A stretch of 43,600 nt of DNA, from the NCBI RefSeq assembly GCF_006345805.1, contig NW_021834989.1, positions 1-43,600 on the forward strand. The letters run 5' to 3'. Made by a program: the position numbers and the translations under genes. How positions within the stretch are numbered: position 1 is the first letter of the stretch; each line of letters opens with the position of its first letter. The stretch comes from Octopus sinensis. Its lineage: Eukaryota. The notes beneath the pieces are model-generated. The model did not search any database, was not told where the DNA came from, and saw only the letters and a program-made list of their open reading frames with translations. This document shows positions 838 to 41,704 of this stretch, in pieces.

Positions 838-1556
838 GGCGGCGAGCTGGCAGAAACGTTAGCACGCCGTGCGAAATGCGTAGCCGTATTTTGTCTGCCG
901 TTACGTTCTGACTTCAAATTCCGCCGATGTCGACTTTGCCTTTCATCCTTTCGGGGTCGATAAATTAAGTACTATTTGTCTGTCCTTGTTTGTCCTCTCT
1001 GTGTTTAACCCCTTGTGGGTAGTAAAGAAATATGTATTTCGTCTGCTGCTATGTTCTGAGATCAAATTCCGCCGAGGTCGACTTTGACTTTCATACTTTC
1101 GGGATCGATAAATTAAGTACCAGTTACACACTGGGGTCGATGTAATTGACCTAATCCGTTTGCCTGTCCTTGTTTGTCCCCTCTGTGTTTAGCCCCTTGT
1201 GGGTAGTAAAGAAATAGGCATTTCGTTTGCCGCTACGTTGTGAGTTCAAATTCCGCTTAGGTCGACTTTGCCTTTCATCCTTTCGGGGTCGATAAATTAA
1301 GTATCATTTACGCACTGGGGTCGATATAATCGACTTAATCTGTGTGTCTGTCCTTGTTTGTCCCCTCTGTGTTTAGCCCCTTGTGAGTAGTAAAGAAATA
1401 GGTATTTCGTTTGCCGTTACTTTCTGAGTTCAAATTTCGCCGAGTTCAAATTTGCCTTTCATCCTGTCGGGGTCGATTAAATAAGTACCAGCTACGCACT
1501 GGGGTCGATATAATCGACTTAATCTGTTTGTCTGTCCTTGTTTGTCCTCTCTGTGC
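838..1556 (+). mobile_element. tRNA-derived SINE family A with body in four tandem units (184-bp period)
   Basis: Head GGCGGCGAGCTGGCAGAAACG (A-box-like), B-box GAGTTCAAAT, central GCCTTTCATCCTTTCGGGGTCGATAAATTAAGTACC (resembles the Meta/MESC SINE domain as I recall it). Units start at 886, 1034, 1218, 1402; unit 1 has an internal deletion. Confidence 0.9.
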
Positions 1557-2930: not shown

Positions 2931-3346
2931 CTCTCTTTTACTCTTTTACTTGTTTCAGTCATTTGACTGCGGCCATGCTGGAGCACCGCCTTTAGTCGAG
3001 CAAATCAACCCCGGGACTTATTCTTTGTAAGTCCAGAACTTATTCTATCGGTATCTTTTGCCGAACCGCTAAGTGACGGGGACGTAAACACAACAGCATC
3101 GGTTGTCAAGCAATGCTAGGGGGACAAACACAGACACACAAACACATACACACACATATATTATATATATATATATACAATAATACAACAGGCTTCTTTC
3201 AGTTTCCGTCTACCAATCCACTCACAGGCATTGGTCGGCCCGGGGCTATAGCAGAAGATACTTGCCCAAGATGCCACGCAGTGGGACTGAACCCGGAACC
3301 ATGTGGTTGGTTAGCAAGCTACTTACCACACAGCCACTCCTGCGCC
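2931..3346 (-). mobile_element. SINE family B (tRNA head plus CORE-like domain; octopus OR-like), full length
   Basis: Minus strand GGCGCAGGAGTGGCTGTGTGGTAAG, B-box-like GGTTCAGTCCC, CORE-like GTGGCATCTTGGGCAAGTATCTT, internal TA/TG microsatellite, tail GAAACAAGTAAAAGAGTAAAAGAG. Confidence 0.92.
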
Positions 3347-3532
3347 TATACAATGACCTTCTGATTGCAAATAATAAAATTTAATAATAAAGAAGTTACA
3401 AGGACCGTGTTTTGATGCATTTGTGCTCTATAAGTGGAAAAAAACCAAGCAACAACAAAAAGTCTACCAACAACTCCGTTATATAATGTGTTGTCCTTAT
3501 TGTTTGTAAGTGGTTAGAAGAAATTTAACAAG

Positions 3533-5244: not shown

Positions 5245-5545
5245 TTCTGTTACTTATTCCAGTCATTGGATTGCGGCAATGCTAGACCCCAACACTATTT
5301 TTTAAAATCTGGTACGTATTCTATCGGTTTCTTTTGCCGAACTGGTAAATTATAGGAACGTAAACATACCAACAACGGTTGACAAGCGGTGGCAGTTTGA
5401 TTAGCGCATGTATGGCTCTGTGTCAAAGAAGACTCCATACTAAGTGGTTCCAGATTCGATGCTAATGTATGGAACTTTGTGCAATTGTCTTCCTATTAGG
5501 CTAACTAATACTTTTTGAGAAGTTACCAAACGGTATCTATACCAA
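5245..5545 (-). mobile_element. SINE family B, decayed
   Basis: TATTCTATCGGTTTCTTTTGCCGAAC...ACGTAAACA...CGGTTGACAAGCG matches the family B 3' half; a decayed opposite-strand head follows. Confidence 0.65.
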
Positions 5546-15287: not shown

Positions 15288-15355
<68 letters not shown>

Positions 15356-15384
15356 CATATATATCTATCTATATATATATATAT

Positions 15385-15426
<42 letters not shown>

Positions 15427-15440
15427 ATATATATATTGTA

Positions 15441-15475
<35 letters not shown>
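15288..15475. repeat. (TA)n microsatellite
   Basis: Direct reading. Confidence 0.95.
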
Positions 15476-15481
<6 letters not shown>

Positions 15482-15594
15482 ATTTCGGAATAGTCATTTT
15501 GCCAGTTTAGCCAATAAAAACACACACACACTATATATTTGGTGTTACTTTGTTCAGCGTTATATATTTTTTACATTAATCTTAATCTTATTTC

Positions 15595-15638
15595 GGCCAG
15601 ATTTCTTTCGTCACACTTCTGTGACCGCATCAGTGGTC
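15595..15638 (-). ncRNA. Type I hammerhead-like motif, copy 1 of a tandem pair
   Basis: Minus strand GACCA-CTGATGC-G-GTCACA-GAAG-TGTGAC-GAAA-GAAA-TC-TGGCC; helix I CCA/TGG, perfect 6-bp helix II, A9>C. Confidence 0.55.
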
Positions 15639-15913
15639 CTTTGCTTTCTTCTTTCTTATTTGTGTGTCTCACCTTACTAACCGTCAGCCATTTTGTATTT
15701 CAGTTGTATGTGACTTCATTTGCACATGCATATATCTCTATGTGCGTCTATGTTTAGTTAGTGTGTGTGTGGGGGGGAGGGGAAATGCCTGTAATATTTG
15801 TATCATGTATTGCTGTTTTACGGGATGGTCATTTTTTTTTGTTTTGGCCAAATAAACACACGCACTATATATTTGTTCTTCACTTGTTTATTTCTGTTCT
15901 TATTCATGTCAGT

Positions 15914-15958
15914 TGTCCGGAAATCTTTCGTCACACATGTGTGACCTCTTCAGAAACA
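15914..15958 (-). ncRNA. Type I hammerhead-like motif, copy 2 of a tandem pair
   Basis: Minus strand TGTTT-CTGAAGA-G-GTCACA-CATG-TGTGAC-GAAA-GATT-TC-C-GGACA; canonical core, perfect helix II, helix I with G-U pairs. Confidence 0.65.
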
Positions 15959-16067
15959 TTTTCCGTGTGTGCTCTTGCTCCACTTACTCCATATATACTT
16001 ATATATGCATATGTATATATGTATATATGAGTGTGTGTTTCTGTGTGTGTGTGTGTGGATGTTTGTG

Positions 16068-16265
16068 TGAAGGCGCGTTGCATTCACGATCGCTAGATCG
16101 TGCTTTCGATTCCCGGATCATGCAGCGCCTTGTGTTCTTAAGTGAAATACTTTATTTTATGTTGCTCGACGAGTGGCAGGGTGTCAAAACCGTTGATGCG
16201 CAAGCAGAAATGTTTTACGTTATACATTCCGGCTCTCTTCATTCTGAGTTCAAATCCCACCTACC
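16068..16265 (+). mobile_element. SINE family C head fragment followed by a family A head fragment
   Basis: GAAGGCGCG...TTCGATTCCCGG...TTGTGTTCTTAAGTGAAATACTTTATTT, then GAGTGGCAG...TTCTGAGTTCAAATCCC. Confidence 0.55.
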
Positions 16266-19009: not shown

Positions 19010-19510
19010 ATACTTATTCTATCGGTTCTTTTTGGTGAATCGCTATGTTACCGGGAGGTGACCAAACAGACACCAGTTGCCAAGTGGTAGTGGACACACA
19101 CACACACTATATATATATATTAAGTTTAGTCATAGGTGGTTACAAAGCGAATGTCTTCGCTTTTACTCTTTTACACTTTTACTTGTTTCAGTCATTTGAT
19201 TGTGGCCATGCTGGAGCACAGCCTTTAGTCGGGTAAATCGACCTCAGGACTTGTTCTTTGTAAGCCTAGTACTTATTCTATTATTATTCTTTTGCCGAAC
19301 CACTTAGTTACGAGGAATTAAACGCACCATCATCGGTTTTCAGGCGATGTTGGGGGCACAGACACACAAACGTATACACGCACATACAAGACTTTGTTCG
19401 GCCCGAGGGTATAGTAGAAGACACTTGCCTATGATACCACGCAGTGGGACTGAACCCGGAACCATGTGGTTGTTAAGCAAGCCACTTACTACACAGCCAC
19501 TCCTATGTCT
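19010..19510 (-). mobile_element. SINE family B: fragment (19010-19100) and near full-length copy (19160-19510)
   Basis: Matches 2931-3346 throughout, with a deletion in the middle. Confidence 0.88.
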
Positions 19511-23237: not shown

Positions 23238-23466
23238 CTTTTACTCTTTCTCTTTTTTACTTGTTTCAGTCATTTGACTGTGGCCATGCTGGAGCACCAC
23301 CGTTAGTCGACCAAATCGACTCCAGGACTTATTCTTTGTAGGCCTAGTACTTATTCTACCGGTCTCTTTTGCCGAACTGCTAAGTTACGGGGACGTAAAC
23401 ACACCAGCATCGGTTGTCCAGTGATGTTGGTTCGCAAGCAAGCTACTTACCACACAGCCACTACTA
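23238..23466 (-). mobile_element. SINE family B with internal deletion
   Basis: 3' half intact and joined directly to the first ~35 nt of the head. Confidence 0.88.
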
Positions 23467-25498: not shown

Positions 25499-26004
25499 GG
25501 ACATACAAAATGTAAATAAACAGTAATATAATACACGAAAAGTCTGGGACGTAAACGCATTTAGCCCACTTACCACGGAGCACATTACAATATATGCCAC
25601 GTCACCTTGTCACATAACCAATCAAATTCCTAGACGGATCTGTCAGTATATTATGAGTTAATTAGATCAAGTTGTTTACGAGCAGGTTATGATGTTCACT
25701 GCGGGAAAATGTGGACAGTTTTCTTTTGTTTTTTTTTTAAAAGAATATTTTATTATCGACAGTCTTTACATCAACATGAACAGCAACAACAACAATATTA
25801 GCGATTACAATGACCAAAAAATAATAACATAAGCCACAGTAAGAACAACTCTAACAACAATAGAAACGAAACAAATACAACAGCAATGAGGAAAACAACA
25901 ACAGCACCAGCGAAAATGACGAGAATAGTCTATTATGAAAGCAGCAATGATAATAACAAGACACAACTACAATGATAGTAACAGCTGTAAAAAAACAACA
26001 ACAA

Positions 26005-27473
26005 GGCGTAGGAGTGGCTGTGTTGTAAGTAGCTTGCTCACGAACCACATGGTTCCAGGTTCAGTCCCATTGCGTGGCACTTTGGGCAAGTGTCTTCTAC
26101 TATACCCTCGAGCCGACCAAAGCCTTGTGAATGGATTTGGTAGACGAAAACTGAAAGAAGTCCGTCGTATATATGTATATATATGTATATATATTGTTAC
26201 GAGGGGGACCTCCGTCGAACGAAAGCTGTTACGGAATCCCTCACACAGGCCCGACCGATCAGACAATGTTCGCCACGGAAACTCGGAGAGGAGAGAGAGA
26301 CGCAATGAAGGCAATTGGCTCACATTTAACAACTAGTTTATGACAATCATTACAACATCAAATACAATGTAAAATACATCAGATATATCAAAGAAAATAC
26401 ATGCAAGAAACAACAAAGCAAAGCATTTAATGAAAACAACACATCAAATGCAATAACAACAGCATTTCAAGAGTACACGTCCGGAGACAACAGTTCTGTT
26501 TTAAAACACATTAAAATTACAGTTCAAAGACATTAAAGGCCTATACAGTTCAATATTCATTACACAGTTCTCTCTTCAACAACTCTGTACACAATGTCTT
26601 TACACAGTTCACATTGTTCTTTTCACTGTCTCATTTCTTTTACAGTTCAATACATCGATTCTTTTTCCTTCTTTTTCTTCACATATCAATACACAATTCA
26701 CGTACCTTAGTTCCTACTATAATAGCCAATGTCTCATATTGTACCTCATCTCTCTTAGCACCGCCAAATCCAACTTGCTAACCTGTCTGCCCTGAATTCC
26801 AAATCCTGGCCGCTAAATCCAACCGCTCGCCTTGACTTCCAAAAACCGACTGCCCAAAACCTCTTGCTCTGTCACAACCCTCAATCTCTCTCTGCTCTAA
26901 TACTCTCTCTATCGCCGCTTAGTCCTATGTGCCCGTCCTCATCGACGCTGTCACTGTCACTCTCTCTCTCAGCTCTGCAATACCATGTCTGTCTGTCCTC
27001 CTCTACGCTGTCACTGTCACTCTCTCATGACAGCTCCCAGATCCATTAATCTGTCTTTCTCAGCCCTTCCTTTTAAGGGGTGTTTAGAACGAACTTTCCT
27101 TGACCGGCAAAAGGGTAGGGTCCTTCCAAAAGCCATTACTCTTCCCAAAACAAAGGACTATAACTTTGCATTCCAGTCTTTCTGTCTCCAGGCCAGCAAA
27201 GTAGGTCACAATCAACTGTCCCTAAGTTGAACTCACAACAATATATATGTGTGTGTATATGTTTGTGTGTCTATGTTTGTCCTCCCCAACATCGCTTGAC
27301 AACCGATGCTGGTGTGTTTACGTCCTCGTAACTTAGCGTTTCGGCAAAAGAGACCGATACAATAAGTACTAGACTTACAAGGAATAAGTCCTGGGGTCGA
27401 TTTGGTCGACTAAAAGCGGTGCTCCATCATGGCCACAGTCAAATGACTGAAACAAGTAAAAGATAAAAGAGTA
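26005..27473 (+). mobile_element. SINE family B, full length, split by a solo LTR (halves 26005-26194 and 27241-27473)
   Basis: The two halves join at the internal TA microsatellite to give a complete copy collinear with 2931-3346. Confidence 0.92.
26195..27240 (-). mobile_element. Solo LTR (1046 bp), probably Ty3/gypsy
   Basis: Begins TGTTACGAG, ends CTCACAACA (TG...CA, 7/9 inverted match), ATAT on both sides (4-bp TSD, ambiguous in TA context). Orientation inferred from minus-strand TTAAAA (~27070) and ATAAAC (~26337). Confidence 0.8.
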
Positions 27474-29730: not shown

Positions 29731-29829
<99 letters not shown>

Positions 29830-29844
29830 ATATATATATATATA

Positions 29845-30328
<484 letters not shown>

Positions 30329-40003: not shown

Positions 40004-40076
<73 letters not shown>

Positions 40077-40078
<2 letters not shown>

Positions 40079-40293
40079 TTCTTTACTACGCATAAGGGGC
40101 TAAACACAGAGGGGACAAACAAGGACAGAGAAACGGATTAAGTCGATTATATCGACCACAGTGCGTAACTGGTACTTATTTAATCGACCCTGAAAGGATG
40201 AAAGGCAAGGTCGACCTTGGCGGAATTTGAACTGAGAACGTAACGGCAGACGAAATACCGCTAAGCATTTCGCCCGGCGTGCTACCGTTTCTC
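40077..40293 (-). mobile_element. SINE family A, young monomeric copy
   Basis: Close reverse complement of the 184-bp unit plus most of the head. Confidence 0.92.
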
Positions 40294-41472
40294 CCTACGA
40301 AGGGCAGTCGGATGGACACTGAAAACAACACCGGGGCATCAAACAGGCTTGTAGAAACTTCAAGGGATCAAAGAGGCTTGTAGAAACTTACTGACTCACG
40401 CATTGCACAATACGTTAAGTGTTTTAATAATGTTCATGATATTACAATTGAATTTGTTTGTGAAGTTCCGGAGTTTTAATTACATAAACAATACACAGTA
40501 GCGTTTACGCAAAGCTTTGCTTTAGCTCAACTAGTTTCCAGTACAATTTCAGACCATAATCTCTTTAAAACAGAAGAATTTACATGTTTAATGCATCGAT
40601 ACAATAAATAAACTTCGCTTCATAGTTGGAAACCAATAAGAAAATACAGCGCACGCCTGTAAGATGCACACACAAATATTCATACATAAACAGATACATA
40701 TAAACTAACATTTCTAATAGCAGACTTGCCTGTAGAAATTTGATTATTCTGATAGAAATTGATGTGCTGTCTATCCCGAAGAGCCAAAATCTCGCTGAAA
40801 TGCCATGTACATTAGTCCACTTAAAATCATTTAGAACGTCTGTGATTTAGAAAGATTGTAGAGAGAAATTTGTCCTCCGAGAAAAACTCATGGCGTATGC
40901 CACATATATATTAGTATGCAAAAACATATTAAATGTATAAACTGTATAAGTTTCGTGTGCTCATATAAGAATTGACTTCAGCATGGGAGACTGTATCAGG
41001 TGTAATGTTTGCTGTTTTTTAGTCCCAAATGTCGGATACAATAACCTTATCACCGAGGAGGCAAAATCACGCCGAAACCGTGTCTAGTAGTTTGGTGATG
41101 TGCATTTAGAGTTTCGTGTGTTCTCACAACGTCTATAAGAAGAAAAAATTGTTTTGTAAGTCGAATCCCGCAGATAGACGATACGAATCCGTACAGATAG
41201 ACGATACAAAGGCAAACAGAAGAAGCAACAATTAGGACAGGCAAAATATGACGTGTCATTTGTGACCTTCTTTTCTCAGTCAAGTATATCCTTACTGTTC
41301 TGGGCAGTTACACTTGAGTTCGATCTATGCTAATCCATGAGCATTAGACCTTTTTTGTAAGAAAGCTAGCAAATGTGTACGACAACAAAGGCAAAAAACA
41401 AAACGGAGAACATGATACACACACACACACACATACACACACATATATATATATATATATACATACATATAT

Positions 41473-41704
41473 CTATTTCTTTATTACCCACAAGGGGCTA
41501 AACATAGAGGGGACAAACAAGGACAGACATAGGTATTCAGTCGATCATATCGACTCCAGTGCGTAACTGGTACTTAATTTATCGACCCCGAAAGGATGAA
41601 AGGCAAAGTCGACCTCGGCGGAATTTGAACTCACAACGTAACGGCAGACGAAATACTGCTACGCATTTCGCCCGGCGTGCTAACGTTTCTGCCAGCTCGT
41701 CGCC
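41473..41704 (-). mobile_element. SINE family A, full-length monomer
   Basis: Reverse complement from GGCGACGAGCTGGCAGAAACG to AAAGAAATAG. Confidence 0.92.

What the first reader, a model, noticed from the sequence alone, without database searches (positions are those of the whole stretch)
15476..15990. Two hammerheads in direct tandem 320 nt apart: retrozyme-like architecture
Both minus-strand motifs share the GUCACA/UGUGAC helix II with different loops (GAAG versus CAUG) and different but still complementary helix I arms, and each is followed by a homologous ~110-nt tail. Cleavage at both would release a ~320-nt RNA, within the size range known for metazoan non-LTR retrozyme monomers. The copies are diverged, so they could be two independent insertions or the two pseudo-LTRs of one non-autonomous PLE.
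Basis: partly seen in the sequence, partly recalled or inferred. Interest (0 to 1): 0.72.

Follow-up and report, generated by a model that had tools for sequence, protein, structure and literature searches.

The report
Two adjacent Penelope retrotransposon stubs
The two hammerhead-like motifs are the clipped tail ends of two different Penelope-type jumping-gene families of an octopus, which likely landed next to each other by separate insertions and are predicted to be too damaged to cut out a circle, so the spot itself is ordinary.

Summary
Both motifs are real (minus strand, 320 nt apart), but they are not two units of one repeat. The genome is an octopus, where the motif occurs 3,529 times. 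Copy A (15992-15808) and copy B (15804-15473) are 5'-truncated 3' ends of two sister Penelope-like (PLE) families. Family B has intact RT + GIY-YIG ORFs elsewhere, with inverted 5' copies. Of 15 places with two motifs 200-500 nt apart, 14 are same-family pairs with varied spacing; only this one is A+B, and its junction is unique. Copy A has lost the closing pair of helix I. Copy B has C at core position 9 and a broken helix III. Their arms mismatch in a heterodimer, so double cleavage is unlikely. Best reading: B inserted at the (TA)n next to an older A stub. The architecture is the published PLE minimal hammerhead (PMC4209133); this scan noted similar PLE ends on other DNA. One side result stands out: the youngest, most amplified B lineage carries the non-canonical C9 core (2,242 against 456 copies).

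The parts
15808..15992 (-). Copy A: 5'-truncated 3' end of PLE family A
   Evidence: Family matches span query 4-188 = 15992-15808 at 80-84%; 92% to family A consensus, 79% to family B; family A loci carry remnants of the same RT/EN ORF at 44-69% aa identity
15914..15958 (-). Minimal type I hammerhead of copy A: core CUGAAGA 15953-15947, extra G 15946, helix II 15945-15930, quasi-palindromic helix III 15926-15921, predicted cut after C17 at 15920; helix I closing pair broken (U.C)
   Evidence: alternative fold buries the cut site
15805..15807 (-). 3-nt junction between A's 3' end and B's truncation point; unique in the genome
   Evidence: 1 match (itself) at up to 2 mismatches; no other place among 40 scored spans it
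15473..15804 (-). Copy B: 5'-truncated 3' end (3' UTR / pLTR) of PLE family B, intermediate-age C9/C17 subfamily
   Evidence: 83-89% blastn matches to 11 loci that all stop at 15804 while those loci share further upstream sequence; maps to 5711-6027 of L076, whose 1044-aa ORF ends at 5341
15595..15639 (-). Minimal type I hammerhead of copy B: core CUGAUGC 15633-15627 (C at position 9), extra G 15626, helix II 15625-15610, helix III 15606-15601 with private C>A at 15602, predicted cut after C17 at 15600; helix I intact
15288..15475 (.). (TA)n microsatellite directly behind copy B, the likely insertion target
   Evidence: among 98 sampled family B 3' ends that could be located, 44 are followed directly by (TA)n and 43 by the optional tail
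15993..16069 (.). TA/CA-rich low-complexity flank upstream of copy A; likely the other half of the original microsatellite target
   Evidence: sequence; inference

Best explanation
The locus holds the 5'-truncated 3' ends of two sister Penelope-like retrotransposon families, each with that family's minimal hammerhead, and likely arose by two separate insertions: an older family A stub first, then a family B stub into the (TA)n target right behind it. Shown: family membership, boundaries, the autonomous parent of B (RT + CX4CxxC linker + GIY-YIG), the unique junction, the lesions in both hammerheads. Inferred: the order and independence of the two events (target-primed reverse transcription from the RNA 3' end, stopping early), the shared (TA)n preference as the reason for adjacency, and that the pair does not cleave or yield a 320-nt circle.
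For: Two sequence types sort cleanly among genome copies; exact counts 469 (A), 456 (B with A9), 2,242 (B with C9). Long ORFs of 882-1,120 aa in 6 of 6 fetched candidates, each with a family B hammerhead on the same strand behind it and 5 of 6 with an inverted one too; L076 has a 2,050-nt inverted repeat at 99%. YVDD, CTDNYCTVC and VYSI...YVGET motifs; Pfam RVT_1 E 0.002 and GIY-YIG E 3e-4, both below curated cut-off; Atlas neighbours with RVT_1, HTH_animal and GIY-YIG at 0.97. Inverted 3' piece upstream in 34 of 80 loci, control 3, as described for PLEs (PMC8557442). 14 of 15 direct pairs are same-family at 81-100%; the window is the only A+B pair, 71%; uniform chance already gives 0.14-0.22 such pairs. 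Private substitutions: A 6 of 185 (family median 3.0%), B 4 of 322 (subfamily median 1.2%). No near-identical source of A: best of 40 scored is 84%. Heterodimer helix I has a mismatched closing pair on both sides, and helix III has 2 of 6 mismatches.
Against: The age difference between the two copies alone is not significant (Fisher p 0.18). Against the consensus of the 12 nearest copies both are 6.5-6.6% divergent, although B's neighbours there are mostly the younger subfamily. The stubs abut with 3 nt and no (TA)n between them, while most same-family pairs have (TA)n or a similar run at the joint. No empty site (A without B) was found, and no target-site duplication can be read in the microsatellite. 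The pair search needs the exact motif in both copies, so more diverged A+B pairs would be missed. Cleavage was not tested.
Confidence: 0.8

Rival explanations
1. One insertion with a template jump: the family B reverse transcriptase copied 330 nt of B RNA, then jumped to the 3' end of a family A RNA and copied 185 nt more, giving a mixed partial tandem.
For: A's normal 3' end abuts B's truncation with only 3 nt between, and a short ATACA repeat lies across the joint. The order (complete 3' end of the upstream piece, truncated downstream piece) is that of PLE partial tandems (PMC8557442 passages). Template jumps are proposed for Penelope in PMC3846280.
Against: No donor copy close to A (best 84% with gaps; 91% without). 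Family A looks older and no intact ORF of it was seen among 48 loci tested. Each copy's private-substitution rate fits its own family's age.
Confidence: 0.13
2. A non-LTR retrozyme dimer or a composite non-autonomous PLE whose two hammerheads release a 320-nt RNA that circularises and spreads.
For: Spacing 320 nt and 38% G+C fall in the published range of 170-400 nt and <45% (PMC7229834). Family B does form arrays of 175- and 184-nt units elsewhere.
Against: Units are not repeats of one another (71%, two families, and the spacer occurs once); junction unique; no other pair at 320 nt; minimal rather than canonical hammerheads; both damaged and mismatched as a dimer; helix I pairing probability 0.00 for A and 0.02 for B in a 120-nt context.
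Confidence: 0.03
3. Ancient tandem duplication of one stub followed by divergence or gene conversion.
For: The two tails are homologous.
Against: Each copy carries the diagnostic bases of a different genome-wide family (92% and 93-96% to its own consensus, 77-79% to the other).
Confidence: 0.02

Closest known systems
Minimal hammerheads (min-HHR) in pLTRs of metazoan EN+ Penelope-like elements (Cervera and de la Pena 2014, PMC4209133; read parts 1-2 of 4)
   Same: Type I, long helix II, short helix I, unpaired base between 9 and 10.1, G10.1-C11.1, palindromic helix III; mostly single truncated copies; pairs on opposite strands 100-700 bp apart; low expected activity, as dimers only.
   Different: Octopus is not mentioned in the parts read. 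Core C9 in the dominant subfamily is not among the variants named there (U3-A8 is). Here two different families sit in direct orientation.
Neptune/Nematis-type EN+ PLEs (Craig et al. 2021, PMC8557442; passages)
   Same: C-terminal GIY-YIG with two cysteines inside, CX2-5CxxC linker, 5' truncation, inverted 5' copies, optional 3' tail, (TA)n targets.
   Different: No tree against reference clades was built, so Neptune versus Nematis is open. The optional tail here is about 55 nt rather than 30-40.
Metazoan non-LTR retrozymes (PMC7229834 passages; Li et al. bioRxiv 10.64898/2026.07.22.740005, parts 1 and 3 of 5)
   Same: Type I hammerheads in direct orientation, 320-nt spacing, low G+C, PLE origin.
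   Different: Retrozymes are tandem repeats of one unit with a complete hammerhead in each; here the two halves come from different families, the spacer occurs once, the motifs are minimal and damaged, and the arrangement has no second copy.

Membership tests
EN+ Penelope-like element 3' end (pLTR with min-HHR) | Homologous to the 3' end of an element encoding RT plus C-terminal GIY-YIG endonuclease | tested here: met
   Copy B maps behind the 1044-aa ORF of L076; family A loci hold ORF remnants at 44-69%
EN+ Penelope-like element 3' end (pLTR with min-HHR) | 5' truncation, inverted 5' copies, optional 3' tail in the family | tested here: met
   34 of 80 loci with inverted piece, control 3; tail in 43 of 98 located B ends; the window pair itself has no inverted piece
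EN+ Penelope-like element 3' end (pLTR with min-HHR) | Minimal hammerhead: extra base between 9 and 10.1, G10.1-C11.1, palindromic helix III, short helix I | tested here: met
   helix I closing pair is G-C in 27 of 50 A copies and A-U in 116 of 124 B copies
Neptune clade | CX2-5CxxC linker before GIY-YIG; (TA)n targets | tested here: met
   CTDNYCTVC at 918 of the L076 ORF; the linker is shared with Nematis
Neptune clade | RT phylogeny inside the clade | not tested
   no named reference sequences at hand
Non-LTR retrozyme | Tandem repeat of one unit | tested here: not met
   two families, 71% around the motifs, spacer present once; TRF reports no such period
Non-LTR retrozyme | Complete hammerhead in each unit | tested here: not met
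   A: helix I closing pair broken; B: C9 core and 15.2-16.2 mismatch
Non-LTR retrozyme | Dispersed copies of the same unit | tested here: not met
   junction found once
Non-LTR retrozyme | Self-cleavage and abundant circular RNA | not testable with these tools
   needs bench assay or raw RNA reads
Single non-autonomous PLE with two pLTRs | Two near-identical pLTRs flanking an internal part | tested here: not met
   pLTRs from different families; the 'internal part' is B's own UTR

The most novel reading that the evidence does not exclude
The Penelope lineage to which copy B belongs changed its hammerhead core step by step (A9 to C9, later C17 to U17) while it went on multiplying: the C9 form outnumbers the canonical form about five to one and sits in the youngest copies with intact ORFs. 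If C9 abolishes cleavage, this is a natural experiment showing that an active PLE does not need its ribozyme; if it still cuts, it is a natural rewired core (C9-G12 pair, or the extra G taking over). Either result bears on the open question of what PLE hammerheads are for.
Probability: 0.4. Interest if true: 0.5.

Novelty: new member of a known kind. Interest (0 to 1): 0.2.

Why it matters
The locus matters little: it shows how two PLE stubs side by side can mimic a retrozyme dimer, a trap for spacing-based searches. The family behind it matters more. PMC8557442 calls the function of hammerheads in EN+ PLEs unclear and asks whether they merely ride along. A recently active octopus family that exists with a canonical and a core-variant hammerhead, both in hundreds to thousands of copies, lets that be tested with one in vitro comparison.

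Tried and rejected
Rfam: 0 hits at gathering in the whole window and no hammerhead among 30 weak hits in 15400-16100; uninformative for minimal motifs. The repeat finder on the window was swamped by microsatellites. My own window scan listed motif B but missed A, because its palindromic CAUG loop failed the loop-size rule; it showed no further convincing motif. Pfam on 160-214-aa ORF fragments gave only chance hits. No PLE ORF remnant in the window. Folding z-scores of the motifs were weak (A -0.66 and 0.25; B -2.0 and -1.8). RNA: no RNA holder listed on record; four runs laid on 15470-15980 were contigs only, dominated by other family copies, with no piece spanning the stretch: no evidence for or against expression, circles or an empty site; the joints of about 345 nt there have sides under 30 letters and reflect the homologous tails. 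The 184-nt array junction was tested as a dispersed retrozyme family: 6 hits in only 2 places, possibly alleles (not settled). Lunse et al. (PMC5785218), which treats PLE hammerhead variants, is not held; only its citation was seen. The search of earlier findings by sequence gave nothing.

Full report
Observation. On the minus strand, two motifs of the form CUGANGN-G-GUCACA-loop-UGUGAC-GAAA start at 15953 (A) and 15633 (B). They share helix II, differ in the loop, and are followed by homologous tails (68% over 176 columns). The predicted cut sites are 15920 and 15600, 320 nt apart. Rfam reports no hammerhead. The shared motif occurs 3,529 times in the own genome of 2.72 Gb, the reversed control 0 times, so it is a repeat family. 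A protein 97% identical to the family's ORF is named from Octopus vulgaris, so the genome is an octopus.

Two families. The first 30 genome copies sort into two types by helix I arms, helix III and tail, and the window holds one of each. Exact counts are 469 for type A, 456 for type B with core A9, and 2,242 for type B with core C9. Window A is 92% identical to the A majority sequence and 79% to B; window B is 93-96% to B and 77% to A. Copy A spans 15992-15808. Copy B spans 15804-15473: eleven loci match it up to 15804 exactly and continue upstream with sequence they share with each other, so B is truncated there. Three bases separate the two. A (TA)n run follows B.

Parent elements. Loci upstream of family B hammerheads encode the end of an RT and a GIY-YIG endonuclease. 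A protein search gave 4,312 candidates, 150 scored, at 88-100% identity. I fetched six of those with the longest open frames; all six hold ORFs of 882-1,120 aa with a family B hammerhead on the same strand behind them, and five also hold an inverted one. L076 has a 1,044-aa ORF with YVDD, the linker CTDNYCTVC and VYSI...YVGET with two cysteines inside, and a 2,050-nt inverted repeat at 99%. Pfam gives RVT_1 (E 0.002) and GIY-YIG (E 3e-4), both under the curated cut-off; the Atlas gives neighbours with RVT_1, HTH_animal and GIY-YIG. Window B maps to 5711-6027 of L076, so the spacer between the two hammerheads is B's own 3' UTR. Six of 48 family A loci tested hold remnants of a related ORF at 44-69%. 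Of 80 distinct loci picked by the motif, 34 have an inverted 3' piece upstream (control 3) and 7 a direct copy. Of 124 family B copies, 26 had no locatable 3' end; of the other 98, 44 are followed by (TA)n, 43 by an optional tail, 11 by other sequence. These are the marks of EN+ PLEs with the Neptune/Nematis linker (PMC8557442, passages). The hammerhead architecture is that of PLE minimal hammerheads (PMC4209133, parts 1-2 of 4).

Is the tandem a unit? A search for two exact motifs 200-500 nt apart on one strand gave 28 matches in 15 places. I inspected all 15 places through 16 of the 28 loci. Fourteen are same-family pairs or arrays (81-100% alike, spacing 172-520, none 320); the window is the only A+B pair (71%). 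Uniform scatter predicts 0.14-0.22 A+B pairs and 0.69 pairs in all, so same-family pairs are enriched and the mixed pair needs little explanation. The junction matches only itself at up to 2 mismatches, and none of the other 39 places scored spans it. More diverged pairs would escape these searches.

Would it cut? In A the 5' arm of helix I reads AUGUUU where the family mostly has GUGUCG, so the closing pair is U.C, and the predicted fold pairs an upstream CGGAAA over the cut site. In B helix I is intact, but position 9 is C and a private change at 15602 leaves helix III with one pair. Minimal PLE hammerheads were inactive as monomers and weak as dimers in vitro (PMC4209133). In a dimer the helix I arms are exchanged (inference from the dimer model); for A with B both closing pairs mismatch and helix III has two mismatches in six. 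That A9 is an invariant core base is recalled; PMC3088659 (passages) says that most core changes cause drastic loss, with rare tolerated exceptions. Release of a 320-nt RNA is therefore unlikely but untested. The sequencing runs gave no usable evidence.

One event or two? Private substitutions are 6 of 185 for A (family median 3.0%, 56 copies) and 4 of 322 for B (C9/C17 subfamily median 1.2%, 31 copies). No close donor of A exists among the 40 scored of 2,632 candidates (best 84%). This favours A first, then B at the (TA)n behind it; PMC6765202 (passages) notes that PLEs tend to insert into or next to earlier copies. Against: the two rates do not differ significantly (p 0.18), both are 6.5% from the majority of their 12 nearest copies (where B's neighbours are mostly a younger subfamily), and the stubs abut without (TA)n, unlike most same-family pairs. 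A template jump between the two RNAs stays possible (13%).

Side result. Within family B the core changed with time: A9/C17 copies have a median 3.0% private substitutions (33 copies), C9/C17 1.2% (31), C9/U17 0.6% (55). All six long-ORF elements carry C9. The sample is not random: 30 loci were chosen for A9 and many others for an intact ORF. The genome-wide ratio of 2,242 to 456 does not depend on that choice. I found no paper on octopus PLE hammerheads or on a natural C9 core in the searches (listings only); the O. vulgaris repeat paper PMC13282606 (passages) lists recently active Penelope families and does not mention ribozymes. Lunse et al. and the supplement of PMC4209133 were not seen and may cover such variants. 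PMC7229834, PMC3846280 and PMC6155905 were seen as passages, the 2026 preprint as parts 1 and 3 of 5.

Verdict. Real motifs and a correct PLE link, but not a retrozyme: two neighbouring, damaged PLE stubs of different families. New member of a known kind; interest 0.2, carried mainly by the C9 lineage.

Noticed in passing
G000:C9:102,970,500-102,974,900 (L092, L099): Head-to-tail array of about 175-nt units (at least 14 motifs seen) made of the family B hammerhead region, 92-100% alike, with a short fold-back at the joint and an inverted copy in front: a retrozyme-like array born from this PLE's end; all units have the C9 core.
   Followed up: partly
G000:C25:22,058,464 and G000:C9110:4,581 (L103, L107): Arrays of 181-185-nt family B units (3 and 5 motifs) with the same joint; 6 hits in 2 places only; may be alleles of one locus.
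   Followed up: partly
L076, L077, L079, L080, L081: Near-intact family B elements with long inverted 5' copies and an asparagine-rich stretch at the N-terminus of the ORF; recently active.
   Followed up: partly
family A, upstream of the hammerhead: The family majority has CGGAAA about 13 nt before the core, able to pair with UUUCCG over the cut site: a possible conserved inhibitory fold.
   Followed up: no
window 838-1555, 40072-40295, 41469-41704: Tandem of 184-nt units and inverted copies at 88-94%; resembles an octopus tRNA-derived SINE (recalled, not tested).
   Followed up: no
window 2937-3121, 23248-23430, 27284-27468; 3226-3347, 19386-19510, 26004-26128: Two further interspersed repeat families at 86-90%.
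   Followed up: no
window 29731-30326: Recent 276-nt duplication at 97% inside (TA)n.
   Followed up: no
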